This document shows positions 1,613-37,569 of a stretch of 47,370 nucleotides of DNA, piece after piece. The position numbers and the translations under genes are program-made. Under the pieces are notes generated by a model. That model was not told where the DNA came from. It did no database searches and was given only the letters and a program-made list of their open reading frames with translations. This DNA comes from a virus (taxonomy: Duplodnaviria > Caudoviricetes), in IMG/VR virus record IMGVR_UViG_3300025645_000009, positions 1 through 47,370 of that record. One strand, given 5' to 3'. Numbering within the stretch: the first letter of the stretch is position 1; every line of letters starts with the position of its first letter.

Positions 1613-2656
1613 ATGGGAACGATCGTGGCGCGCCAACGCAACAACGGCGCGAAATCGTATATGGCGCGGATCATACTGAAGCGCGATAACAAAATCATCC
1701 ATCGCGAGAGCAAGACGTTCACCGAGCACAAGGCCGCGGTCAGGTGGATGAAACAGCGCGAGGTCGATCTGGCCAAGCCTGGCGCCCTGCTGTCACCGAC
1801 ATCGACCCTCACCCTTGCCGACGCTATCGATCGCTATGTGCGCGAGGTAACGCACGACATAGGCAAGACCAAGGCGCAGGTGCTGCGGTCGATCGGGCGC
1901 ATGAAGATAGCCAAGATCCAGTGCGATCAGATCGGGTCAGCCGAGATCGTTGATATGTGCCGCACGCTGTCCAAGACTATGGCGCCGCAGACTGTCGGGA
2001 ATTATCTCAGCCACCTGTCAGCCGTGTTTGCCATTGCTAATCCTGCTTGGGGCATACCTCTGGACGCGACGGCCATGAAGGCAGCTCAGACAGTGCTGAA
2101 GCGCCTTGGCCTCACCAGCAAGAGCCTAAGCCGCGACAGACGCCCCTCGCTGGCAGAGATCAGGCTCATCGTGGATTGGTTCAGGAGCAGATCGGAGCGC
2201 GTGCCGCATTGCGTGCCTATGGCCGAGATCGTGATGTTTGCGATATTTTCGACGAGGCGTCAGGAGGAGATCACGCGCATCAGGTGGGATGACCTCGACG
2301 GCGATAGGATCTTGGTAAGGGATATGAAACACCCCGGCCAGAAGATCGGAAATCACCAGTGGGTTGATTTGCCCGCAGAGGCGCGAGCGATAATCGACCG
2401 GATGCCTCGCAAGGATGCCCGAATATTCCCCTACAGCACGGACGCGATCAGCGCGGCGTTCACGCGGGTTTGCCATATGCTTGGGATCGAGGATCTGCGG
2501 TTTCACGACCTGCGGCATGAGGGCGTCAGCCGTTTGTTTGAAATGGGGCTCAACATTCCGCACGTTGCCGCCGTGTCTGGTCATCGGAGCTGGCAAAGTT
2601 TGAAGCGTTACACCCACATGCGGCAGAGCGGCGACAAATGGGCGGGATGGAGTTGA
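1613..2656 (+). CDS. int: Tyrosine integrase, probably of the dusA-associated integrase family
   Basis: Catalytic R (STRRQEEI), HDLRH, SGH...KRY; adjacent to dusA-like att core. Confidence 0.95.
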   Translation: MGTIVARQRNNGAKSYMARIILKRDNKIIHRESKTFTEHKAAVRWMKQREVDLAKPGALLSPTSTLTLADAIDRYVREVTHDIGKTKAQVLRSIGRMKIAKIQCDQIGSAEIVDMCRTLSKTMAPQTVGNYLSHLSAVFAIANPAWGIPLDATAMKAAQTVLKRLGLTSKSLSRDRRPSLAEIRLIVDWFRSRSERVPHCVPMAEIVMFAIFSTRRQEEITRIRWDDLDGDRILVRDMKHPGQKIGNHQWVDLPAEARAIIDRMPRKDARIFPYSTDAISAAFTRVCHMLGIEDLRFHDLRHEGVSRLFEMGLNIPHVAAVSGHRSWQSLKRYTHMRQSGDKWAGWS

Positions 2657-2663
2657 TAAATAT

Positions 2664-2716
2664 TTTCCGTTTTCCGTAAAATAGTGTTTGCATTGTCTTT
2701 CCGTATTCCGTAAAGT
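2664..2716 (+). promoter_or_regulatory. Sigma70-like promoter (TTGCAT 2688, 17 bp, TAAAGT 2711) overlapped by two 17-bp direct repeats
   Basis: tttccgttttccgtaaa (2664-2680) and tttccgtattccgtaaa (2698-2714). Confidence 0.6.
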
Positions 2717-2758
2717 CTAAGTATGGAAACGGCGAAAGCCACAGATAGGAAAACGAAA

Positions 2759-2941
2759 ATGAAAACCTTCACCGCAGCAACCATCCGCAACACCATCAAA
2801 GCCGCTATCAAATCGGGCATGTCGCAAGCTGATGCCGAAAGCCACGCAGAGTTTTGCCTTGAGCAAGCCGAAAGCCAGCTTGGCGATGACAAGTGCAAAG
2901 CCGCCCGCGCCGAACTTAAAGAGATCATGGCTGCACAATGA
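2759..2941 (+). CDS. Small helical hypothetical protein (60 aa; 72 aa if started at 2723)
   Basis: AGGA RBS before ATG 2759; ATGA overlap with the next gene. Confidence 0.7.
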   Translation: MKTFTAATIRNTIKAAIKSGMSQADAESHAEFCLEQAESQLGDDKCKAARAELKEIMAAQ

Positions 2942-3135
2942 CACCAGCAGAATTTAAAGAGGCCCGCGTAAAGCTGGGCCTCTCACCAGTCGCCTGCGCC
3001 GCCCGCTTGGGCTACACTACGCAAAGCCGCATCAGCGAAATCGAGCATGGTGATCGTGTGCCGAAGCAGGCCGCGATCATCATGCAGCTTCTGCTGATTT
3101 TGCCGCGCAAGAAGTGGCCTGAAGCCCCAGAATAG
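2938..3135 (+). CDS. XRE-family HTH protein
   Basis: MTPAEFKEARVKLGLS...AARLG...ISEIEHG pattern. Confidence 0.85.
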   Translation: MTPAEFKEARVKLGLSPVACAARLGYTTQSRISEIEHGDRVPKQAAIIMQLLLILPRKKWPEAPE

Positions 3136-3152
3136 TCATGGCTGGATGGATA

Positions 3153-3196
3153 TAAAAACCCGCCAAGGTGCGCATCGTTGAGAGGCGTGGCGGGTT
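3153..3196 (-). terminator. Probable intrinsic terminator
   Basis: AACCCGCCA/TGGCGGGTT stem (3157-3165/3188-3196) ending in a T run on the minus strand; the loop is long (22 nt). Confidence 0.5.
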
Positions 3197-3219
3197 GGCC
3201 CGTGATCAAATCGGGCAGT

Positions 3220-3299
3220 TGGTTTGAGCGCGGCGTCAGGATTTTCGCCTATACCACGCGCCTTTCAGCAACGCCAAGCCATAATGGCCGCCGCGCTCA
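3220..3299 (-). ncRNA. Candidate structured small RNA (cloverleaf-like, 3' ACCA)
   Basis: Perfect 11-bp closing stem (3289-3299/3225-3235), three internal hairpins, upstream TTGACA-17-GATATT promoter. Confidence 0.5.
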
Positions 3300-3334
3300 G
3301 TTGTGAATATCACATCACCAAGGCCAAATGTCAA
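3300..3334 (-). promoter_or_regulatory. Promoter TTGACA(3334-3329)-17-GATATT(3311-3306) with operator-like site 3300-3316
   Basis: Consensus -35; gttgtgaatatcacatc matches the 17-bp operator with one change. Confidence 0.6.
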
Positions 3335-4119
3335 CCGTGGACAGCGGCCTCATGATAAGCATCAGCGCGATCTTTGTTAATGCGCGAGCGTGAAATGATC
3401 GCGATGACAGCCAGCACGGCCAGCGCTCCAACGACGATAAATACGATCCGATTAATGTCGCCATCAGTAACGAAACCAGCAGCAGCATTGGCCACGCTAC
3501 CGCCCGCAGTCGTGGTCGCGGCCTTGTCTTGCGTCTTGGCCTTGCCCAGCGCCAGATCAGACAGATCGGCCAGCCGGTCACTGGTAGCCTCGCTTGACAC
3601 GCCGCCCGCCAGTATAGCCATCTTGACGCCCTTGGCCTCGATGTCAGCAATACGCCGCGACCATCCTTTGCCGAATGTCGTGAATGTCTTGAGCCCCTTC
3701 ACGAACCCGAGCCGTTTGGCGCAGAGCTTTTGCACGGTATACATGGGATGAATTTTCGGCATGGCTGCGAGGGTTTGGTCGCCAATGACGCCATCTTGTT
3801 TGACGCCCAGAACCGCCTGAAAATATTTAGCCGCCCGCGACGGCCCAGAGTTGATCGCGAAATCATTCACGGCCAGATCGATTCCGGTCAGCAGATCATC
3901 GCCGCGAACCGTATTCCAATAGCCGACGCGATAGATTTTCTGAAGCATGTCATCGGAGATGTTGCGCAGATCCGCCTTGGTTGCGCCTGGCTTGTATTTA
4001 CGAAACGTCGCCAGCGTGATGCCCTTCATGGTCGCGCCGCCTGGATCTTTGGGGTGATCGGCCCAGCCGCCCTCATGTTCCAGCGAGATTTTCAGGCACG
4101 CCGCGTAATTGCTCTTCAT
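3331..4119 (-). CDS. Glycoside hydrolase family 108 endolysin with peptidoglycan-binding region and C-terminal membrane segment
   Basis: HEGGWADHPKDPGGATMKGIT motif; DGVIG..T; FGKGWSRR; hydrophobic C-terminus. Confidence 0.92.
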   Translation of the reverse strand: MKSNYAACLKISLEHEGGWADHPKDPGGATMKGITLATFRKYKPGATKADLRNISDDMLQKIYRVGYWNTVRGDDLLTGIDLAVNDFAINSGPSRAAKYFQAVLGVKQDGVIGDQTLAAMPKIHPMYTVQKLCAKRLGFVKGLKTFTTFGKGWSRRIADIEAKGVKMAILAGGVSSEATSDRLADLSDLALGKAKTQDKAATTTAGGSVANAAAGFVTDGDINRIVFIVVGALAVLAVIAIISRSRINKDRADAYHEAAVHG

Positions 4120-10285: not shown

Positions 10286-10497
10286 TTACGCCCCGCAATA
10301 GCTTTGCGGATTGCAGGCTCGTGCATGGCCATCAGGTTAAGCCGCCGCTGAAGGTTCAGCAGTTCGGAAACCGTGGCGCTATCGACTTTCATCCATGTAT
10401 CTTTTGCCGTCGTGCCGTCGCGCATGGTTGTGCGGGATACGATCAGCCCGAGCAGATCGGCTTGCTGGGATAGGCTCATAGGCCCCTCAGCACTCAT
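10282..10497 (-). CDS. Hypothetical protein
   Basis: ATGA overlaps with both neighbours. Confidence 0.7.
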   Translation of the reverse strand: MSAEGPMSLSQQADLLGLIVSRTTMRDGTTAKDTWMKVDSATVSELLNLQRRLNLMAMHEPAIRKAIAGRK

Positions 10498-10718
10498 TTG
10501 ATGTCAGGCGTTAAATCCGCCGCGTCAATTTTCACACCGCGCTCTTTAGCCAGCCGAATGATGTCGGCTTGATCATTGCCGCTGATCAGGCCGCGCTCAT
10601 CACGAACCGCCAGCGAGATCTTGGAGCGATGCCGACCGAGACCGCGGGCGAGCGCGTTCTGCGAAAGCTCGAACTTGGCAAAGACTTTCTGCCAGGGGGT
10701 CATCTTGGGGTTTTCCAA
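10494..10718 (-). CDS. Cro-like HTH regulator
   Basis: SQNALARGLGRHRSKIS HTH; divergent from the repressor gene. Confidence 0.8.
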   Translation of the reverse strand: MENPKMTPWQKVFAKFELSQNALARGLGRHRSKISLAVRDERGLISGNDQADIIRLAKERGVKIDAADLTPDIK

Positions 10719-10735: not shown

Positions 10736-10827
10736 GCTGCGATTTTCACAACAATACGTTGAGCCTTTCACAACGTCAACAGGCAATCCACCCCGCGCCA
10801 CTTGCCTGACGTTGTGAGATATGCAAC
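10736..10827. promoter_or_regulatory. Lysis/lysogeny switch: three 17-bp operators (10736, 10758, 10811) and leftward promoter TTGACG-17-TATTGT
   Basis: gctgcgattttcacaac, gttgagcctttcacaac, gttgtgagatatgcaac between divergent HTH genes. Confidence 0.8.
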
Positions 10828-10851: not shown

Positions 10852-11478
10852 ATGACCGACACCACGATCGACAAGAAATGGTTCCTCACGCGCCTTGAGG
10901 ACCAGAACTTGTCCCTACGGGGGCTCGCGAAACAGATCGACATGGACCCATCAGCACTCAGCAGAACTCTGTCAGGTCAGCGTAAAATGCAGCTAGAAGA
11001 AGCCAAGGAAATCGCCCGCTTTCTACACGCCCCAGTTACAGAGGTGATGCGCCATGCTGGCGTGTCTGTCGATCTGGACGGATTGCCCACGCGAATATTG
11101 CTCGCAGCCTCGATCGACAAGGCGGGTCATGTGCATGGCCTGGCCGACCCCGCCCGCTTGCCGCAAGCCGTGATCGACAAGGCTCAGGCCGCGATCAGCC
11201 GCGCAGGCAACGCCCGTGTCATTGCCGCGCAGATCAGATCCAGCGAGGGGCCACTGTCATTCTGGGATGATGCCGTCGCGCTATTCGCCGCCACCGATCG
11301 CGTTGAGCCTGACGCCATAGGCTCGCTTGCGATATGCCGAACGATGGACGGCAGGCAGGCGATCGTCAAAGTCCTGCGCGCTCGCAAGACGGGAGAGGCC
11401 ACAGTGCAGTGCGTTGGTGGTGGCACGATCGAGGTCATGCTCCAGACCGCCGCGCCGGTGATCGCGATTATTCCCTGA
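10852..11478 (+). CDS. CI-like repressor (N-terminal HTH, divergent S24-like C-terminal domain)
   Basis: LSLRGLAKQIDMDPSALSRTLSGQRKM; GGAGG RBS. Confidence 0.88.
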   Translation: MTDTTIDKKWFLTRLEDQNLSLRGLAKQIDMDPSALSRTLSGQRKMQLEEAKEIARFLHAPVTEVMRHAGVSVDLDGLPTRILLAASIDKAGHVHGLADPARLPQAVIDKAQAAISRAGNARVIAAQIRSSEGPLSFWDDAVALFAATDRVEPDAIGSLAICRTMDGRQAIVKVLRARKTGEATVQCVGGGTIEVMLQTAAPVIAIIP

Positions 11479-18363: not shown

Positions 18364-21300
18364 TTACCTCTGCTTGCCCATGACGTATTCAATGGGCGAG
18401 ACTTCCTCGCCTTCCATTGCCCGCCATGCCGCGTCGAGCGATCGGTTTGCCTGCGCCGAGGGGAGCCGGAACAGCATCCCGCCGAGGTTGATCGCGCCCT
18501 TGACCAGCGACTTATCGACTTCACCCTGCAAGGCTTGCTGGAACGGCTTGATCATCGTGCCGATCAGACTGTCATAAGTGCCGCCGTCAAACCCACTTGC
18601 AGCACTGGCCGCGTCACGGATGAACGGCAGGCCCGCAGTGATAGTCTGGACGCCGCCGAGCAGGGTATTCGAGATCAGGCTTTCGTCATCATCATCGCCG
18701 CCGTCATCGCCAAGCGCCAGAGCCGTCGCGCCGCCAATCATCGACAGCGCCACAGTCTCGCCCAGCACGATCAGGAACATGTCGAACGCATAATCCATCG
18801 CCTCAGTCGCCGTGATCGGCTTGGAGTTGAGCCGGTTAGTGCGGTCAATGATCAGGTTCGTCTTGGCGAAGAAATATGAGCCGAGCGTCGTCAGCAGCAT
18901 CACATGCGCCGATTGACGGCTGCGCATCCCGAGAGACCCGCGCTCATAGCCAGAGCGATCGGACCAGATGCCCGACGACTGTGCGCGGTGCAGAGCGTTG
19001 TCAGCGAAGGCAATCGCCTTGGTCTCATTGCCGTCGAACTTTTCAAGGCCCAGCCGATAGCCAGCCACCCACGTCGGGACATCGACCGTGTAGAGCTGGG
19101 TATAGACCATGCCCGCCGTTCCATAGCGCACGACGTATTGATCGAACAGATCCGCCGCCTTGCTTGTTGAAGGCGAGACAATGCTACCCTCTGCCTGCGC
19201 ATCCATCAGGTCTTTCTGGAATGTCTCGCGCCGTTCCCACAGCACGCGGGACTTGGCCATCGCTTCAGCCGAAACCTCTTGCGGGTGTTTGAGGTAATCC
19301 GCCACAGCCACGGCGAGGTTTTTCTTGCCAACGACGACAGCCGATTGAACAATCCCGAGGGGCTGCATCAGAGCGGTCTTGACGCTCCAAGCCAGTTTCG
19401 AGAACGCAAACCCGTTGCGAACTTTCTGCATGGCCGAGGCGACACGGCTGTCAGCCCCAAGCTGGCCCGAGGCAGCATCGAGCAGCCACAGCCGCAGGAA
19501 GTTATATTCTGCATCCATGCCAGCCTTGAGCATCGCGCTCTTGACCTCTGCGCTTGTCAGCAGGCGGAACGAGTTGATCACCGCCTCGCTATGCGTCAGA
19601 TCGTGGATGACCTCTGCAACGTGCATCCCCCACGCGCCAGGCTCTAGGGTGAGCGACTGATCTACGTTGGCACCACGGGCTTGCAGGTGGCCGTCCTTGG
19701 TCGAGGCGCTTACGAACCCGCCTTTCATCATGCGCTGCAAGACTTCTTCATCAGTGCCGGTCAGATCCGATCTCCCGCCGCCGAGCCGCCCGTCATACTT
19801 GATCGGGAAATACCCGCCGCGATACTGCCCATGAGGCGTGTTGACTGGCGTGGCCTCGACCCAAGTGGGCTCAGTGCCTTTGACCCGCCGCTCGCGCTCT
19901 GCCATCAGCGGGCGATAGGTGTCGTTGTAATCCCAAATCGCCTGCACATAATCCCAGTCGCGCTTGTCGAGCAGGGTCTTGACGACCTCGACCTGCGGCT
20001 CAGTCAGGTGCATAGCGGCCTTGGGGTTTGTCAGTCGCGCAAGGTTGCCAGCGTTGCCCATGTTGCGCGCCATGCTGATAAGATGCCACTTTGAGAACGA
20101 CGCCCCGAGCGCGGGGATATGGCGCTTGATGCCCATGTCGCGTTGCTCTTCTGCCGAATAGACCGACATGATCGCCTCGATGTCACGCGCAGCCTTTGCC
20201 CGCATCTCGCGCTCGCCATACGCGGCTTCATCGATCTCAGTCTTGATCGCGTCGTAAACCGTGCCGTAATCCTCTGTGTTGTCGAGGCGGCGCAGGATGG
20301 TCGAGGCGTGATAGATGCCAGCGATATAATCGTGACCGAGATCCTTGAGCGTTTTCATCCAGCCATTCGCCGGCGCATCCCAAGAGATCGGTTTCTCAGT
20401 CGTGTTGGTCTTGATCGTATCGACGATTTTGTCGCGGGTTTCTTCAAAGTCGCGCTTGCGTTGACCCGAGATCAGATCATTCCACCGCTTGGCGGTATGT
20501 TCCAAGTTTTTCAGGCTATCGATCACGCCCCGCAGCTCTTCCATTGGCAGGGTTTTGTAAGGCGTGCGCGCCGCATTGCTGCGAACCTTCTCAGGGATCG
20601 AGAGCTCATTCTCGCGACCCGCCGCAGTCATCGCGTCGATATAGGCTTGCAGGGCCCCTCGCCGCGCTTCAGCAGGGCCGGACATGCGCCGGAAGTCATA
20701 GCGCCCTTGGAGGTCATCGATCGCGGCGAGATAGTCGATCTGCGCATTTTCGCGCCGACCAGCCCCAGCGATCCTTTCGCGGTTGCTGGGCTTGTTGAGC
20801 CTGCCGATATAGGTCTCAGCTTTTGAGACCTCTTCTGCGGCCTTGCGGCTTTCCATATAGAGCGCATGGTTGAGCAGTTGGACACGCTTGGCCTTGTATA
20901 GTCGAGCGATCATGTCTGCCTGCGCAGCACTTGGCTTAGGCGCGCCGTCAGCACCCGTTTTCATATATGCAGCGCGATTGATCCAATACCGCTCGCTTGA
21001 TAGCTTGGCGGCGAGCTGATAAGCCTCATTCCCAGCCTTGCGCTCTGCGGCCAGGAAACGATTGGAGTTGACCGCATCCCGCGCCTTCATGCGTGTAATC
21101 GTGTCACGCGCTACCGACCGAGCCTCTTTAGCAGTCAGCCCCACGCCTTCACCGGTGATCTTGCGAACGGCTTCCAATTCACGCGCCAGCCACTGGCCCT
21201 TTTTGTCAGTGTGAACCGCATCCAGCGCCACCGCTTCAGCAGTGCCATCGCGAAGCACATCACCGTGCAGCTCATACATCCGTCGATCGGTTTCAGCATC

Positions 21301-24300
21301 GATCGTGGCCTTGCGATTTGGAGCCGCCTCGATCGCCTTGACCATCTGATCGCCAGACCCGAATCCGAACCAGCCAGCAACGTCATCAGGATCAACTCCG
21401 CCCTCGACCGAATAGACGTGCTTGCGGCCATCCGTCAGGGTTTTCAGCACGCCCGCGCCGTAACGCTGCACCAGCACATCCTTGGACAGCTTGAGCTTAG
21501 GCATGTTCTCAGGCTCATCGTCACCGATCCACCGCCCGTTACCCATCCATTCATAGGCCCGATATACCGGCTGCGCATTGATCTCGCGCTCGACGCCTTC
21601 ACGAACCGCGGCCTTTTCCTTTTTGAACCACTCATCACGCTCGCGCTTGATCGGCGCCATAGCTTCGGCCAGCATCCGAGCCTGGCTGTCCGCATCGGCT
21701 TCACCGCGCAGCTTGATAAACGCCGCATATTCTTCAGCGGTCAGGCCCATCTCTTCAGCGGTTGCGAACACCGGCCCCATGTCGCCCGTGTCAGCCTTGG
21801 CCGCAGCGATCTCGTTGTCGCTCGCGAGCATCCGATCGAACACTTGGCGGATGCCGTCAGAAACCTTGACGTTGGTTCCGGTGAGCCGCTTATAGATCGA
21901 GATCAGCCACGACCTGAATTTGTCAAACGCCCCGCGCAGCTCGACGCTTGGCGCTTTGCCTTCCATGAGATAGGTTTCAAACGCCCGCGCCCATTGCTCT
22001 TGCATCCCGACATCGACCGCAGCATCTTTCAGCACGTCGCCTGTCGAGCCTGTATCGATCGCCCGCTTAACGTCATCGGCGGTTATCCCAGTGTCAGGCA
22101 TAGCCCGCAGGCCGTCAGCCGCCACAGCAGCCGCGTTGTCGCGCCACCAGCCCTTGATCGCCTGATACTCAGCGACCGAATTCGCCTCGCCCTTGGATGC
22201 GAGATCTTGCATGACGGTCAGGAAGAAGTGACCGCTTTCGTGCAGCATGGTCGAGAGGTTGGCCGTTTCAAACAGGCTGATGATTGCCTTGCCCGACCCG
22301 TCGATCGAGATCTGGCCACGCGGCGAGGTTTCGTTGCGTTGGAAAAGGCGATTGCCAGATTGGCCGTAGGGGCGCGCCCCAGATAATTCACTAGAAATGC
22401 GATCCCAAACTTTCTCTTGCAGCTTTTGGGATGCTTTCGTGCGATGTGATGCCGGGGGGGATTTAGGAAATCTCATTCTCCATTGATAAACAATCTCCTC
22501 AGCAATCCCCTGCCTTCTATACTTCTTATCAACGACCAACGTGTCCCCAAGATTGTATGAAGCGACAACCTTATCACCATCAAGGACCGCCGCGCCGTTT
22601 TCGTGATATTTCGCAGTCAGGCCCTTTCCTGCGCCAAACGGAACCGCATCCATAGACTCAACAGATTTTAGCACCTTCGGGGTCAATGAAGCTGCGTTTG
22701 AGTTTGGCGTTATCTTCGCGGATCCCAAAAACTCACTACGAGAAACCCCTTCAAATGGATGCCCATCTTGATACAAGATCCGAGGATCATTGCCGTCGAA
22801 CGTCCCGCGGTTGTGGACCGACTTGATCTGTGTGGGGTCAAGCGCAAACCACGACATCTCACTAGTGTCGTTTGGCTCATATACTTGCGCCCCATCATAT
22901 CCTCTTTCCATCATCCGAGCGGATACTTCTGGATTATCAAGCCAAGACCACTCTATAAGCCCGCCTTGAAAGATAACATCGATCAGGGCATCATTACCCA
23001 CACCTTCAGATGTCGAGACCCCGCCATCGACATCTATAGACCATCCGCCATCAGGCTCTCCGTCTGGCCCTATGCTCCTAGAAACAACTGGATCAAATAT
23101 GTATAAAATATCATCTATAGCGTTAGACATTCCTTCGGTTGCTTCAGCGTCTGAACCCCTTGGGTCAGCAAGTGGCTTCTTAATAGAAACATAATATTCA
23201 CCGACAGAACTGCCATATGATCTAGCATCGTCTGAGCTAGGGCTGAGGAAAATACCGCTCGATACAGTATCTTTTTCTGAAAAAAGAACCATGCGCTTCC
23301 CGCGCCTGCCAGTCTCAAAAGCAAATTCATCAGATCCTTGATCAGCAAAATCAGACCCATGATAAACTACCAGCGGCTCGCCATTCTCATCGACGACCTT
23401 GCTGTCGCCAAACCACGCCTTGAACGCCGCGCTGTCGGTGTTTACGACACCATCCTGCCCATACATCCGAGCATCTTCATCGCGCGCCGCTTCAATGCCT
23501 GCGCGGATCGTGGCGTCGTCATCATCGAGGCTCAGGCCGATCTGCGCCAAATACCGCTCAATCTCGTCGAGGTGGCTCTCATCGACCGGTCCAGTGTCAT
23601 GATCTGAAAACTGTGTTTCCCCGCGCACTTCAGCGCCGATCGCATCCCACAAGGCCCGCGTCAGGTCAGGGGCTTCATCGCCGCGCTCCATAGCAGCCTT
23701 GTATTCGATCACCGCAGGATGGTCAGCCATGAACCCCGCTTCAATTGCAGCGAGCGCCACGTTGTCAGGCCCATACGAACCACCGTCGCCCGAGCCAAAC
23801 ATCGCGCCCTGGCCTTCAGCGGCAGTCTCGCGCTTCAGCTTCAGCGCCTTCTTTCCGCGCCCGCGCTTGATCGTTGCCGCATCCATAGCGTCCAGCTCGC
23901 CGCCACGGTCATTGATGCCACCGCGATCAGCGATGAACTCCAAGAGGCTTTGGCGCTTGTCACCAGCAGGGGCGCGACGGTTGCGCGCTTCGGCCAGCGT
24001 GCGGGTCAGCTCATCGACATTCTTGGGCGCCAGGGCTTCAGGCAGAGCGCCACGGACTTGCGGCAATGGGTATCTGGTCAGGAACTCATCAGTTGTCAGC
24101 CCAGACCGTTCGGCCATGACGCGGTAAAACGCGGGATAGATCATCGCCTCAGAGGTTGCCACGTCAGTCGATCGACCGGCCACGCGCAGGCGAGACACCA
24201 TCTCATCATAGATTTTTTCTTCAGCGCCGCGCCACTTCTCATCCTCTTGGCGCATGGCTTCGGCGGTTTCCCACGCTTCGGCCATCGCGTCAGACGCCTT

Positions 24301-25974
24301 TTCATTGAACGCCTGCGCTTCGGCAGCGGTCATCTCATTGGGGTCAAACCGCATGTTTTGCATGAGGAACCCATCGACATCAGATCCAGCCAGCGAGGCG
24401 GCATAGGTCGAGGTCGGGATCTTCAGATCAGTGCCATTGTTGACAGCATCGCGCAGGTCATCAGCCGACACACCCTCAAGCGCGCCCGCGATCTCATAAG
24501 GGTCAAGCCCCTGCTCTTGGAAATACGTCGCGAACTGATCGGCGGGAATATAGACGTTTTCGACCGGCCCATCAGCCGTTGCACGTTCAACGAATTGGCG
24601 GAATTTCTCAGGCATACGCTCGCGCAGTTTCGAGCTTTGCGCCTGACCAGACAGCGCCTCGAATACAGCAACGCGATCCTTGGCGGCAGTGGCCTTTTCC
24701 TTTGATGCAGACATGCGCGCACCAGCAGCCGCCGCCGAGCTCGCAGCCTTACCGCCCGCGTGCATCCCGCCACCGGCACCAGCGCCCGCAAAGAACGACT
24801 GCGCCAGACGATCGATCACTTCCTCGCCCGTGTATTCGCCGCCAGCGATCGAGGTTGTCCCCATCATGATCGCCTCTTGCAGCGTCTCAGTCGTGCCTTC
24901 TGCAATGGCGGCAGACATAACGCCAGCCGCAGCCTTGGTCATGCCGTTGGTGACAAGCACCTCAGCCAGCGTTCCGGCCGCAGCACGTTCTGCCACCTCT
25001 GTCACGCCAAGCCCGCCGAACACCTTGCCCATACCGATGACATCGAGCGCCGCGACCGCAGTGCCAGCGCCAAACGCCAGAGCCACGCGATTGGCAGGCT
25101 CCATGTCTGGCAGCTTTCCGGCCAGCTCATTGTTGACCTCACCCGTGGACAGCACCAGATTGACGAAAGGCCCGAACCCGCCGCTTGCCATAGTCGCGGC
25201 CATTTGTGGCGCCGACATCGCAATGTTTTCAGTGATGAACGACAGCGCCGAGCCGAGACCCTTCACGTCCTTGAACGACATTGGCTCGAAGCCCTGCTTT
25301 GACAGATCCTCAAGCATGGCCTTGCCAGCGTCATAGATCACGCCGAGATCTTGCTTGGCGAGCGCAGCCCCGCGTTGCTCTGGCGTCATGTCTGGACCGC
25401 CGACCATTTGGCGCTCTACACCATCAGCCTCAGAGGCTCGACCGCGCAGGTAATTCGCCAGCCGCCCGAGCAGGTTTGGATCACCATCGCCATTGGTCAG
25501 CACAGTGTCATCGAAAACGTCACCGGCAGCATCGAGGCCACGGCCAAGCGCGCTTGTCTCTAGCACCGCGCCAGTGTCACGCATGACTTCACGACCTTGC
25601 GTCACAGCCGTAGCGTTGCCCATGTCGAACGACTTGCCCATGCGCTCGAACCACGACAGACCATTTAGGTCATCGCGTGCCAGCACAGCATTATCTGGAT
25701 TGCGCAGCCACTCAGTCAGCCGAGGCGCAGTCGTCAGGATTGTTTCGGCGCGCTTCTTCTCGATCTCAGCTTGGAAAATATTGCGGTATTCAGGAACCAT
25801 CGCCGCAGGTGGCTGGGGGTTTCCAGTCACCTTGGCGAAGTCACTCGCAAGCGTCATGTCGCGGGCTACCTCATCAGGGTTTGCATCGGTCGAGCCGATC
25901 ACGACTTGCGCCGCGCCGACCGATGCCTTGGCCTGATTTGCTTTCCACGCTTCATAGTCTGCGAGTGTCGTCAT
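18364..25974 (-). CDS. Giant internal virion (ejection) polyvalent protein, 2536 aa
   Basis: T7 gp16-like position; ART-PolyVal-like segment (FKAWFGDSKVVDENGEPLVVYHG), GNAT-like segment (YRRQGIA), zincin-like HESGH. Confidence 0.85.
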   Translation of the reverse strand: MTTLADYEAWKANQAKASVGAAQVVIGSTDANPDEVARDMTLASDFAKVTGNPQPPAAMVPEYRNIFQAEIEKKRAETILTTAPRLTEWLRNPDNAVLARDDLNGLSWFERMGKSFDMGNATAVTQGREVMRDTGAVLETSALGRGLDAAGDVFDDTVLTNGDGDPNLLGRLANYLRGRASEADGVERQMVGGPDMTPEQRGAALAKQDLGVIYDAGKAMLEDLSKQGFEPMSFKDVKGLGSALSFITENIAMSAPQMAATMASGGFGPFVNLVLSTGEVNNELAGKLPDMEPANRVALAFGAGTAVAALDVIGMGKVFGGLGVTEVAERAAAGTLAEVLVTNGMTKAAAGVMSAAIAEGTTETLQEAIMMGTTSIAGGEYTGEEVIDRLAQSFFAGAGAGGGMHAGGKAASSAAAAGARMSASKEKATAAKDRVAVFEALSGQAQSSKLRERMPEKFRQFVERATADGPVENVYIPADQFATYFQEQGLDPYEIAGALEGVSADDLRDAVNNGTDLKIPTSTYAASLAGSDVDGFLMQNMRFDPNEMTAAEAQAFNEKASDAMAEAWETAEAMRQEDEKWRGAEEKIYDEMVSRLRVAGRSTDVATSEAMIYPAFYRVMAERSGLTTDEFLTRYPLPQVRGALPEALAPKNVDELTRTLAEARNRRAPAGDKRQSLLEFIADRGGINDRGGELDAMDAATIKRGRGKKALKLKRETAAEGQGAMFGSGDGGSYGPDNVALAAIEAGFMADHPAVIEYKAAMERGDEAPDLTRALWDAIGAEVRGETQFSDHDTGPVDESHLDEIERYLAQIGLSLDDDDATIRAGIEAARDEDARMYGQDGVVNTDSAAFKAWFGDSKVVDENGEPLVVYHGSDFADQGSDEFAFETGRRGKRMVLFSEKDTVSSGIFLSPSSDDARSYGSSVGEYYVSIKKPLADPRGSDAEATEGMSNAIDDILYIFDPVVSRSIGPDGEPDGGWSIDVDGGVSTSEGVGNDALIDVIFQGGLIEWSWLDNPEVSARMMERGYDGAQVYEPNDTSEMSWFALDPTQIKSVHNRGTFDGNDPRILYQDGHPFEGVSRSEFLGSAKITPNSNAASLTPKVLKSVESMDAVPFGAGKGLTAKYHENGAAVLDGDKVVASYNLGDTLVVDKKYRRQGIAEEIVYQWRMRFPKSPPASHRTKASQKLQEKVWDRISSELSGARPYGQSGNRLFQRNETSPRGQISIDGSGKAIISLFETANLSTMLHESGHFFLTVMQDLASKGEANSVAEYQAIKGWWRDNAAAVAADGLRAMPDTGITADDVKRAIDTGSTGDVLKDAAVDVGMQEQWARAFETYLMEGKAPSVELRGAFDKFRSWLISIYKRLTGTNVKVSDGIRQVFDRMLASDNEIAAAKADTGDMGPVFATAEEMGLTAEEYAAFIKLRGEADADSQARMLAEAMAPIKRERDEWFKKEKAAVREGVEREINAQPVYRAYEWMGNGRWIGDDEPENMPKLKLSKDVLVQRYGAGVLKTLTDGRKHVYSVEGGVDPDDVAGWFGFGSGDQMVKAIEAAPNRKATIDAETDRRMYELHGDVLRDGTAEAVALDAVHTDKKGQWLARELEAVRKITGEGVGLTAKEARSVARDTITRMKARDAVNSNRFLAAERKAGNEAYQLAAKLSSERYWINRAAYMKTGADGAPKPSAAQADMIARLYKAKRVQLLNHALYMESRKAAEEVSKAETYIGRLNKPSNRERIAGAGRRENAQIDYLAAIDDLQGRYDFRRMSGPAEARRGALQAYIDAMTAAGRENELSIPEKVRSNAARTPYKTLPMEELRGVIDSLKNLEHTAKRWNDLISGQRKRDFEETRDKIVDTIKTNTTEKPISWDAPANGWMKTLKDLGHDYIAGIYHASTILRRLDNTEDYGTVYDAIKTEIDEAAYGEREMRAKAARDIEAIMSVYSAEEQRDMGIKRHIPALGASFSKWHLISMARNMGNAGNLARLTNPKAAMHLTEPQVEVVKTLLDKRDWDYVQAIWDYNDTYRPLMAERERRVKGTEPTWVEATPVNTPHGQYRGGYFPIKYDGRLGGGRSDLTGTDEEVLQRMMKGGFVSASTKDGHLQARGANVDQSLTLEPGAWGMHVAEVIHDLTHSEAVINSFRLLTSAEVKSAMLKAGMDAEYNFLRLWLLDAASGQLGADSRVASAMQKVRNGFAFSKLAWSVKTALMQPLGIVQSAVVVGKKNLAVAVADYLKHPQEVSAEAMAKSRVLWERRETFQKDLMDAQAEGSIVSPSTSKAADLFDQYVVRYGTAGMVYTQLYTVDVPTWVAGYRLGLEKFDGNETKAIAFADNALHRAQSSGIWSDRSGYERGSLGMRSRQSAHVMLLTTLGSYFFAKTNLIIDRTNRLNSKPITATEAMDYAFDMFLIVLGETVALSMIGGATALALGDDGGDDDDESLISNTLLGGVQTITAGLPFIRDAASAASGFDGGTYDSLIGTMIKPFQQALQGEVDKSLVKGAINLGGMLFRLPSAQANRSLDAAWRAMEGEEVSPIEYVMGKQR

Positions 25975-36795: not shown

Positions 36796-37569
36796 TTAAC
36801 CTTTCGGTGCATCGTTCGGAAACAAGGAATGCGCGACATCGACAGGTTTACCCGAGCCAGCAGCCGCGCCAGATGCAGGGTCATCTTCCGAGATCATGGC
36901 CCCCACTTTTGACATGAAACGAATAAGCTCTGGATGGTTGCCGCCACCACTCGCATTGAGATATTCTTTCAACGCGGGCGTTCCGAGTGTTTCAACGGCG
37001 CGGCGAGATGCAGAAACTGTGCTGTCCCACTTGCCCCCGCCGATCTCTTTATCGGCCTTCGCATCGCCCACCCATTTCTCGATCGTTTGACCCCAGCCCT
37101 CTTGCTGCGCTGCGGCCCGCTTGGAGATGATGTCAGCGTATTTATCGGACAGCTTTTGCGCTTGGCCGTTGGTAAGGCCCAGCTCTTTGAATTCGCCACC
37201 GAGCGCGTCGAGCATTTCCGCATCGACCTCGAAGCCTTCAGGCATGGCCAGATCATACTTGCCATCCTCTGGCACCACGTCAGCCTTGGCAGGATCGGCA
37301 GGCTTGGCCTTGTCATGCTCTGCCTTGGCCGCAGCGTTTTCGGCTTCGGACTTGGCGGGGTCAGCCTCGAATTCTTTCCAGTCGCCCACAGCAGGTGCAG
37401 GAGCTGGCGGAGCGTCAGGCTGCGCACCACCCTCTGGGGCTTTGTTATCATTGGGGAAAAGCACGCTTTCATCGCTTGCAGGAGCTGGGGCAGCACCACC
37501 CTCGACAGGGGCAGCGCCAGCCTCATCAGCAGGAGCGCGCAGGATCTCAGGCATCCAAGGGCGGTTCAT
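36796..37569 (-). CDS. Capsid scaffolding protein
   Basis: Acidic Pro/Ala-rich N-terminus, GGNHPELIRF..KVG..ISED; precedes the capsid gene. Confidence 0.8.
   Translation of the reverse strand: MNRPWMPEILRAPADEAGAAPVEGGAAPAPASDESVLFPNDNKAPEGGAQPDAPPAPAPAVGDWKEFEADPAKSEAENAAAKAEHDKAKPADPAKADVVPEDGKYDLAMPEGFEVDAEMLDALGGEFKELGLTNGQAQKLSDKYADIISKRAAAQQEGWGQTIEKWVGDAKADKEIGGGKWDSTVSASRRAVETLGTPALKEYLNASGGGNHPELIRFMSKVGAMISEDDPASGAAAGSGKPVDVAHSLFPNDAPKG

What the first reader, a model, noticed from the sequence alone, without database searches (positions are those of the whole stretch)
3153..3334. Operator-overlapped cloverleaf-like small RNA candidate ending in ACCA
Seen on the minus strand: TTGACA-17-GATATT places the expected start near 3299, the first base of TGAGCGCGGCG, which pairs perfectly with CGCCGCGCTCA followed by AACCA. 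Inside are three hairpins: GCCA-TTA-TGGC; GCGTT-GCTGAAA-GGCGC (7-nt loop, two G-U pairs); TAGG-CGAAAAT-CCTG (7-nt loop). A further hairpin (3198-3216) and a terminator follow, and an operator-like site covers the -10. It is not a canonical tRNA (11-bp stem, no GTTC). Known: P1 C4 and P4 CI are RNase P-processed phage regulatory RNAs. Inference: a tRNA mimic/decoy or antisense regulator.
Basis: partly seen in the sequence, partly recalled or inferred. Interest (0 to 1): 0.7.

Follow-up and report, generated by a model that had tools for sequence, protein, structure and literature searches.

The report
Phage RNA carrying orphan AbiF antitoxin
A temperate phage holds a predicted short non-coding RNA gene, likely switched off by the phage's own repressor, that ends in a near-exact copy of the RNA which silences the bacterial anti-phage toxin AbiF; no AbiF gene was found in the phage, so the RNA likely works as a decoy that disarms this host defence.

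Summary
The 'terminator' (3158-3194) is an Rfam abiF RNA (54.6 bits, cut-off 37), the antitoxin motif of the AbiF type III toxin-antitoxin defence, 35/37 identical to one in front of a chromosomal Abi_2 gene. The complete phage has no Abi_2, nor do 21 of 22 near-complete viral records with the motif. The operator is real: one of nine 17-bp sites shared with the cro/cI region, so expression is likely early-lytic. The 'cloverleaf' is not a conserved cloverleaf: it is one domain of a phage RNA family with no Rfam match, with a fixed closing stem and an interior that differs between members and even in a ~95% identical relative. Some interiors hold true T-arms; this one does not, and ACCA is not conserved. 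Best reading: a modular decoy RNA whose abiF module neutralises host AbiF (0.6). No transcript or binding was shown. C4/CI-type antisense is not supported. No look-alike DNA in earlier scan notes; one note rejected an 'abiF-type decoy' for another element. The 2025 Cell paper on AbiF could not be read and may anticipate part of this.

The parts
3329..3334 (-). -35 hexamer TTGACA (overlaps the endolysin stop codon)
3306..3311 (-). -10 hexamer GATATT with TG extension; start predicted near 3299-3301
   Evidence: L165 has a promoter at nearly the same distance from the same stem
3300..3316 (.). 17-bp palindromic operator (consensus GTTGTGA-N3-TCACAAC) over the -10 and start; likely bound by the phage repressor
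   Evidence: matrix trained only on the three cro/cI-region sites ranks it 6th in the genome; 4 sites in 200 shuffled genomes reach its score
3225..3299 (-). Module 1: closing stem of a phage RNA family with no Rfam match (arms 3299-3289 and 3235-3225)
   Evidence: no Rfam match on relatives except abiF
3236..3288 (-). Variable interior ('cargo') of module 1; weakly folded, no homologue found, replaced in a close relative
3217..3224 (-). A/C-rich linker that contains ACCA; not a conserved CCA end
   Evidence: CCA 1-2 bases after the stem in 6 of 34 units
3198..3216 (-). Module 2: 5-bp hairpin with a TGATCA-containing loop, recurring in other phages with changed but paired stems
3158..3194 (-). 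Module 3: abiF RNA motif (Rfam RF03085), orphan; its stem and the T run also form a likely terminator
   Evidence: 54.6 bits, gathering 37; 35 of 37 identical to L295
3154..3158 (-). T run; predicted 3' end of an RNA of about 145 nt
3331..4119 (-). Upstream endolysin (glycosyl hydrolase 108)
2723..3135 (+). Convergent accessory pair: small orphan protein (60-72 aa) and XRE-type HTH gene; missing in one contig of a close relative
10736..10827 (.). Three operators of the same family between the divergent cro-like (10494-10703, -) and cI-like (10852-11478, +) genes
   Evidence: the cro-like HTH match is weak, E 0.02

Best explanation
The locus is predicted to make a roughly 145-nt non-coding RNA, likely repressed in the lysogen and made early in lytic growth, whose last module is a toxin-less copy of the AbiF antitoxin RNA that would bind and silence the host's AbiF anti-phage RNase. 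Shown: promoter consensus, operator family, abiF match, absence of Abi_2, modular build, interchange of the 5' interior. Inferred: transcription, repressor binding, timing, binding to AbiF, protection of the phage. The 5' domain is a fixed closing stem that likely stabilises and presents an exchangeable RNA cargo; in some phages the cargo is tRNA-like, so further decoy roles are plausible but untested.
For: abiF match over the curated cut-off. 35 of 37 bases identical to the motif in front of a chromosomal Abi_2 gene in the class Alphaproteobacteria sample (L295). No Abi_2 in the complete phage. Abi_2 in 5 of 77 virus records that carry the motif, 1 of 22 among IMG/VR records at least 90% complete, 0 of 5 GenBank phages. 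In T7-like Aeromonas phage PZL-Ah8 the orphan motif lies between two structural genes behind a sequence that looks like a phage-polymerase promoter (recognised by eye), a place with no room for a lost gene. A base pair left free by my search pattern is kept in 49 of 58 orphan motifs with four pair types besides C-G, against 32.6 +/- 2.8 in shuffles. Abi_2 occurs in 30 of 401 genomes of the likely host class. abiF-motif RNA neutralises AbiF in trans by binding (bioRxiv 10.1101/2025.04.15.648962). The operator family also sits at promoters of the replication and recombination operons. Same order of three modules in L158, L174 and L180.
Against: No transcript, binding or escape data; the host is not identified (integrase closest to Sinorhizobium and Phaeobacter replicons, 57% and 52%; capsid closest to Vibrio phages, 55%). 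My pattern fixed the abiF loop, so loop conservation among orphans is built in, and related phages inflate all counts (four of the 22 complete records look like one gut-phage group). Host abiF leaders vary widely: only 4 of the 16 strongest Abi_2 loci gave an abiF match at E up to 0.5, so this copy could match only some AbiF proteins. In C. difficile the antitoxin has two motifs; here there is one. Prophage abiF genes are reported downstream of lysis modules, which is where this motif sits. Most family units have no abiF within 400 bases (3 of 34), so the carrier domain has a role apart from it. Only Pfam Abi_2 was searched over whole genomes; a divergent cognate toxin could be missed.
Confidence: 0.6

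Rival explanations
1. The abiF motif is a left-over of a lost abiF cargo gene, kept only as the terminator of the small RNA and of the lysis transcript.
For: The motif is itself a terminator-like stem with a T run (at least 5 T in the next 10 bases in 37 of 58 orphans). Prophage abiF genes occur downstream of lysis modules. The adjacent two-gene block is an accessory slot that is absent from one relative contig.
Against: Intact orphans far outnumber gene-linked copies (5 of 77 records have Abi_2), occur in T7-like and other cultured phages, often directly behind tRNA genes, and keep a covarying inner pair.
Confidence: 0.17
2. The main product is the 5' domain, released as a tRNA-like decoy for tRNA-cutting defences or tRNA-binding proteins; abiF is secondary.
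For: Canonical T-arms in 3 of 33 interiors against 0.06 expected. The close relative's loose ends contain T-arm hairpins that match the cargo of L245 at 25 of 30 bases with two compensatory pair swaps (compared by eye). A tRNA-Asn-like fold sits inside a rearranged unit in L237 (relaxed threshold). The window's last inner hairpin has a 7-nt loop next to the closing stem.
Against: The window's interior has no canonical T loop, folds worse than shuffles, has no homologue, ARAGORN and Rfam tRNA are negative, and CCA is not conserved.
Confidence: 0.13
3. The abiF copy serves something other than defence evasion: it recruits host AbiF to trim the RNA, or controls an undetected phage HEPN-type protein.
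For: AbiF processes its own RNA (review PMC12737573, passages); orphans often sit at the end of tRNA or ncRNA clusters. About half of the phage's proteins tested have no Pfam match.
Against: No HEPN, reverse transcriptase or Nop family among the window proteins scanned; AbiF is present in under a tenth of likely hosts, a poor basis for a needed processing step.
Confidence: 0.07
4. A P1 C4 / P4 CI-type processed antisense RNA that regulates phage genes.
For: Multi-branched fold with a long closing stem in a temperate phage; a 14-nt match of the interior and a 13-nt match of the hairpin elsewhere in the genome (9 and 5 of 200 shuffles).
Against: No C4 or CI family match. The 14-nt match is in sense orientation to the gene there; five segments were tested, so these values are unremarkable. 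The promoter carries a repressor-type operator, whereas C4 and CI act in lysogens (recalled). The interior is not conserved in the closest relative.
Confidence: 0.03

Closest known systems
abiF RNA motif (Rfam RF03085); AbiFr and RCd22 antitoxins of the AbiF type III toxin-antitoxin system (bioRxiv 10.1101/2025.04.15.648962; reviews PMC12737573, PMC13064643)
   Same: Module 3 scores 54.6 bits on the family model, has the A/C-rich lead-in and T tail seen at host loci, and is 35 of 37 identical to a gene-linked copy.
   Different: No abiF gene follows or is found in the genome; single motif; fused behind two other RNA modules; promoter under a phage operator.
pseudo-ToxI of phage PhiTE (PMC3475682, abstract read)
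   Same: Phage-encoded non-coding copy of a type III antitoxin RNA that suppresses abortive infection by mimicry.
   Different: Different toxin family (ToxN, not a HEPN RNase); pseudo-ToxI works after repeat expansion in escape mutants; here one near-exact motif recurs in many unrelated wild phages, and function is untested.
sk1 cos-site hairpin that inhibits AbiF (as summarised in review PMC13064643)
   Same: A phage non-coding element counters AbiF.
   Different: The review says that hairpin does not resemble the AbiF RNA; this element is the motif itself.
abiF sRNA noted in cyanophage S-CREM1 and three Rfam phage genomes (PMC9964418, passages)
   Same: abiF motif in a phage genome, in a cluster of non-coding RNAs.
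   Different: In the passages read no antitoxin-mimic role is proposed and toxin absence is not tested.
Phage tRNAs and tRNA-like RNAs; P1 C4 / P4 CI RNAs (recalled)
   Same: Closed multi-branch fold; T-arm hairpins in some relatives; family units lie mostly just upstream of terminase genes.
   Different: 9-11-bp fixed closing stem with freely exchanged interior, no conserved CCA, anticodon or D arm, no antisense targets found.

Membership tests
abiF RNA motif (RF03085) | Score above the Rfam gathering cut-off over the full model | tested here: met
   54.6 bits against 37, positions 1-37 of 37
AbiF type III toxin-antitoxin system | Abi_2/HEPN toxin gene downstream of the RNA | tested here: not met
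   No PF07751 match in the complete genome; so not an AbiF system, only its RNA part
AbiF type III toxin-antitoxin system | RNA binds AbiF and neutralises it | not testable with these tools
   The complex predictor takes no RNA partner; needs an experiment
Phage RNA antitoxin mimics (pseudo-ToxI kind) | Antitoxin-like RNA in a phage without the toxin | tested here: met
Phage RNA antitoxin mimics (pseudo-ToxI kind) | Expressed during infection | tested here: inconclusive
   Promoter and operator fit early-lytic expression; no RNA holder listed
Phage RNA antitoxin mimics (pseudo-ToxI kind) | Lets the phage escape the defence | not testable with these tools
   Needs plating tests
tRNA | 7-bp acceptor stem, D, anticodon and T arms, detected by ARAGORN or RF00005 | tested here: not met
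tRNA mimic | Canonical T loop stacked on an acceptor-like stem | tested here: not met
   Absent in the window; present in 3 of 33 interiors
tRNA mimic | Conserved 3' CCA | tested here: not met
   6 of 34 units
P1 C4 / P4 CI antisense RNA | Match to the Rfam C4-type models | tested here: not met
   No such match at E up to 10
P1 C4 / P4 CI antisense RNA | Loops complementary to target sites in the same phage | tested here: not met
   Longest matches 13-14 nt, near shuffle level
P1 C4 / P4 CI antisense RNA | RNase P processing | not testable with these tools
   Needs RACE or an in vitro assay

The most novel reading that the evidence does not exclude
Phages run an RNA-only counter-defence platform: fixed carrier stems into which decoy modules (tRNA T-arm mimics, antitoxin copies, unknown cargos) are swapped by recombination, with orphan abiF RNAs as a widespread anti-AbiF weapon from T7-like phages to temperate and gut phages. 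Each cargo type would then point to a host defence that it blocks.
Probability: 0.3. Interest if true: 0.9.

Novelty: new variant of a known kind. Interest (0 to 1): 0.72.

Why it matters
AbiF is the proposed ancestor of Cas13 and was only recently shown to be held in check by an RNA. If orphan copies of that RNA in phages are decoys, a catalogued Rfam motif becomes a ready list of RNA anti-defence genes, testable with a two-plasmid rescue assay, and RNA antitoxin mimicry goes from the PhiTE case to a common strategy. The carrier family adds a set of several dozen unrelated RNA cargos in one fixed frame, a natural library of candidate decoys.

Tried and rejected
No RNA holder listed for the stretch; the four runs laid are contigs of one study, probably DNA, and say nothing on expression. 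A chromosomal partner gene for the carrier stem: genome-wide scan gave 30 hits, 0 of 30 with the 3' arm within 200 bases, one a CRISPR spacer; two-arm pattern in 4 of 401 Rhodobacteraceae-family genomes, with the reversed control ringing at least once, not followed. A host source for the interior: only short matches at E 2e-4 or worse in 401 genomes. GenBank phages: no carrier unit found with L160 as query. Idea that the operator palindrome is a collapsed upstream stem: dropped once the operator family appeared. Leader pairing with the 5' arm as a switch: minor in most of 9 units folded, not pursued. Kissing-loop dimerisation through the palindromic hairpin loop: not supported or excluded; a variant loop in L019 breaks the 6-base palindrome. 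Resemblance of part of the interior to a type I-C CRISPR repeat, TIGR arrays, bridge RNA, retron and DRT RNAs (all recalled): no reverse transcriptase or Nop family among the proteins scanned, not pursued further. L149 and L153 lack the upstream stem and were left out of the family counts. One search counted both orientations of a self-complementary pattern; its pooled numbers are replaced. The 60-aa neighbour has 3 close homologues and no family.

Full report
Setting. The window is a whole virus record of 47,370 bases with direct terminal repeats, rated complete. It encodes an integrase, a cI-like repressor, RecT, a primase, a T7-like tail and a GH108 endolysin: a temperate podovirus-type phage. 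The host is not identified; the integrase is closest to Sinorhizobium and Phaeobacter replicons, so an alphaproteobacterium is likely. The element lies on the minus strand between the endolysin stop and a convergent two-gene accessory block.

Observation. Every feature named is present. The outer stem, the middle hairpin and the last stem are well determined in the folding ensemble (pair probabilities 0.8-1.0); the three inner hairpins are not (about 0.6, 0.09, 0.5), and the interior folds worse than its shuffles (z +1.2). ARAGORN finds nothing.

The abiF module. abiF-motif RNAs are the antitoxins of AbiF, a HEPN RNase anti-phage toxin; they bind the toxin and neutralise it in cis and in trans (bioRxiv 10.1101/2025.04.15.648962: abstract, one results section, first part of the discussion and passages read; reviews PMC12737573 and PMC13064643, passages). 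This phage has no Abi_2 match. Of 33 downstream ORFs scanned (37 were listed; 4 left out), 5 are Abi_2. I then gave 79 handles for whole-record search: 76 IMG/VR loci and 3 GenBank phages, leaving out 15 near-identical gut-phage contexts and one fragment identical to the window; 2 were not held. Abi_2 was found in 5 of 77, and in 1 of 22 IMG/VR records at least 90% complete; 0 of 5 GenBank phages have it. The positives agree, which shows the search can see the gene. Orphans occur in T7-like phages of Aeromonas and Rhizobium, a Salicola phage and a Pseudanabaena phage, several directly beside tRNA genes; a plasmid control has the motif in front of an Abi gene. A pair that my pattern left free is kept in 49 of 58 orphan motifs against 32.6 +/- 2.8 in shuffles, not corrected for kinship. 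Abi_2 is present in 30 of 401 genomes of the class of the Marinosulfonomonas genome G004 (Alphaproteobacteria, my knowledge); RF03085 in 2 of 151 of its family, one gene-linked. The gene-linked motif of L295 is 35 of 37 identical to the window's. Against: only 4 of the 16 strongest host Abi_2 loci gave any abiF match, so many host systems use other leaders.

The operator. The palindrome over the -10 is part of a 17-bp site. Three like sites lie between the divergent cro-like and cI-like genes. A matrix built from those three alone ranks 3300-3316 sixth in the genome; 4 sites in 200 shuffled genomes reach that score; the other top sites (46123, 6923, 11523, 1509, 43061) lie in intergenic positions, three of them right behind clear sigma-70-like promoters. 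By the lambdoid model (established knowledge) the promoter would be off in the lysogen and on early in lytic growth. Binding is inferred. Read-through from the endolysin gene may add late expression.

The 5' domain. Scans with the stem arms found relatives. The full family unit is a short CCGCTYT leader, a stem A with a variable interior, then directly the stem TGAGCGCGG...CCGCGCTCA with a second variable interior. A scan that fixed only the leader and first arm gave 18 hits, 17 distinct; by eye 15 carry both stems in this order and 2 are rearranged hybrids; several are closely related phages. In stem A, nine of eleven pairs hold in 31 of 31 distinct arm sets with one to six pair types each, and one position is a constant mismatch; units were picked for pairing, so this is biased upward. 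In the metagenome scan 11 of 43 distinct candidates passed that filter and the rest were treated as chance. Stem B was fixed by most patterns, so its covariation is barely tested; G-U variants occur. Among 34 units, 33 distinct second interiors (window included) fall into 27 clusters and 33 first interiors into 26; the window's has no homologue; mean folding z is -0.06 and -0.48. Canonical T-arms occur in 3 of 33 second interiors against 0.06 expected. Units lie mostly just upstream of terminase genes, often in tandem. Rfam gives no family match on 20 of these loci at cut-off and on 8 at E up to 2, apart from abiF and one weak tRNA-Sec hit. The window, like L165, has the second stem only, directly behind a promoter. 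Contigs of a relative about 95% identical keep both flanks but differ inside: loose ends at 3293 and 3234 and a joint 3216-3291 (low depth, one study, probably DNA). One loose end matches the double-T-arm cargo of L245 at 25 of 30 bases with two compensatory swaps in the T stem (by eye). The interior is therefore exchangeable cargo, and at least one cargo type is a conserved tRNA-like structure. A CRISPR spacer in the Marinosulfonomonas genome matches 21 bases of the stem junction, which ties the family to a Rhodobacteraceae host.

The middle hairpin. A 5-bp hairpin with TGATCA in its loop precedes abiF in L130-L133 and the window, with different but paired stems, and also occurs without abiF and inside carrier interiors. 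Of 84 abiF contexts, 33 have a hairpin in the 45 bases upstream and 7 have GATC in its loop. The order carrier stem, hairpin, abiF recurs in L158, L174 and L180; only 3 of 34 full units have abiF within 400 bases. Its function is unknown; a protein-binding decoy or a dimerisation loop are guesses.

Mechanism. Most likely (0.6): on infection or induction the repressor leaves the operator, host polymerase makes the 145-nt RNA, and its abiF module loads onto any AbiF toxin freed from its own antitoxin, keeping the RNase shut so that the infection is not aborted; the carrier stem protects the 5' end and displays a second, swappable decoy. Only the anatomy and the distribution are shown. Rivals: vestige kept as terminator (0.17), tRNA-like decoy as main role (0.13), other use of the motif (0.07), C4/CI-type antisense (0.03).

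What is known. It works like pseudo-ToxI of PhiTE (PMC3475682, abstract read) but against another toxin family. Module 3 is a member of RF03085; the locus is not an AbiF system, not a tRNA and not a C4/CI RNA by the tests above. Eight literature searches (listings and abstract starts) showed no paper proposing orphan phage abiF RNAs as mimics. PMC9964418 notes abiF in a cyanophage and three phage genomes (passages); PMC13064643 reports an sk1 hairpin that inhibits AbiF without resembling the RNA. bioRxiv 10.64898/2026.06.01.729453 does not mention abiF. The 2025 Cell paper on AbiF is not held, so I know it only through these reviews. PMC5737381 has no abiF in its main text and its supplement could not be read. 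In PMC10690425 (passages), three of six held supplements were searched for the carrier motifs and one for six contig ids, without hits; two zip files and three further files could not be searched and may hold the family. Novelty is claimed within these limits. Earlier scan notes show no look-alike DNA; word searches gave one note that rejects an abiF-type decoy for another element and one on a viral RNA-cassette island; neither was tested here or changed my reading.

Verdict. A real, regulated, modular phage RNA locus; the orphan AbiF antitoxin is the best-supported function, the swappable carrier family the strangest part. New variant of a known kind; interest 0.72.

Noticed in passing
window 46123, 43061, 11523, 10736-10827, 6923, 3300, 1509: Nine 17-bp operators of one family outline the likely repressor regulon of this phage; a tenth weaker site at 36980 lies in the scaffold gene.
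   Followed up: partly
window 2653-3135: Small orphan gene plus HTH gene behind a promoter with repeated TTACGGAA sites, an arrangement like anti-CRISPR/aca pairs (recalled); absent from one relative contig; the same HTH family lies beside the carrier unit in L181 and after a small acidic gene in L128.
   Followed up: partly
L204:2490-2520: A spacer in a 72-repeat CRISPR array of a Marinosulfonomonas genome matches the conserved junction of the carrier family.
   Followed up: partly
L002:1960-2045: In T7-like phage PZL-Ah8 an orphan abiF motif sits between portal and scaffold genes right behind a putative phage-polymerase promoter; kin in PT2, T7-Ah and PZL-Ah152.
   Followed up: partly
L033, L050, L122, L005: Orphan abiF motifs lie within a few bases of tRNA genes, which suggests release by tRNA processing.
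   Followed up: no
L008, L010, L011, L028, L044 and kin: A large gut-phage group carries the orphan motif behind a GAAGAAGC-containing stretch that resembles a second, degenerate abiF copy, recalling the two-motif RCd22.
   Followed up: no
L019, L054, L097 (upstream of abiF): Another recurring closed RNA element with a variable interior (arms beginning ACGCATG) in abiF-bearing phage RNA islands.
   Followed up: no
L237:600-820; L238:800-880: Rearranged carrier units: one encloses a tRNA-Asn-like fold in a long stem, one joins the first arm of stem A to the last arm of stem B.
   Followed up: partly
window 18364-25974: The 2,536-aa virion protein carries LPD22 and a polyvalent-protein ADP-ribosyltransferase domain.
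   Followed up: no
L291-L306: Most alphaproteobacterial Abi_2 genes have a promoter-hairpin-T leader that Rfam abiF does not recognise: further antitoxin RNA families, whose phage orphans could be sought the same way.
   Followed up: no
one search hits, cluster of large Mycobacterium phages: Weak 23-26-base matches to the abiF motif in about 30 related mycobacteriophages; may be chance.
   Followed up: no
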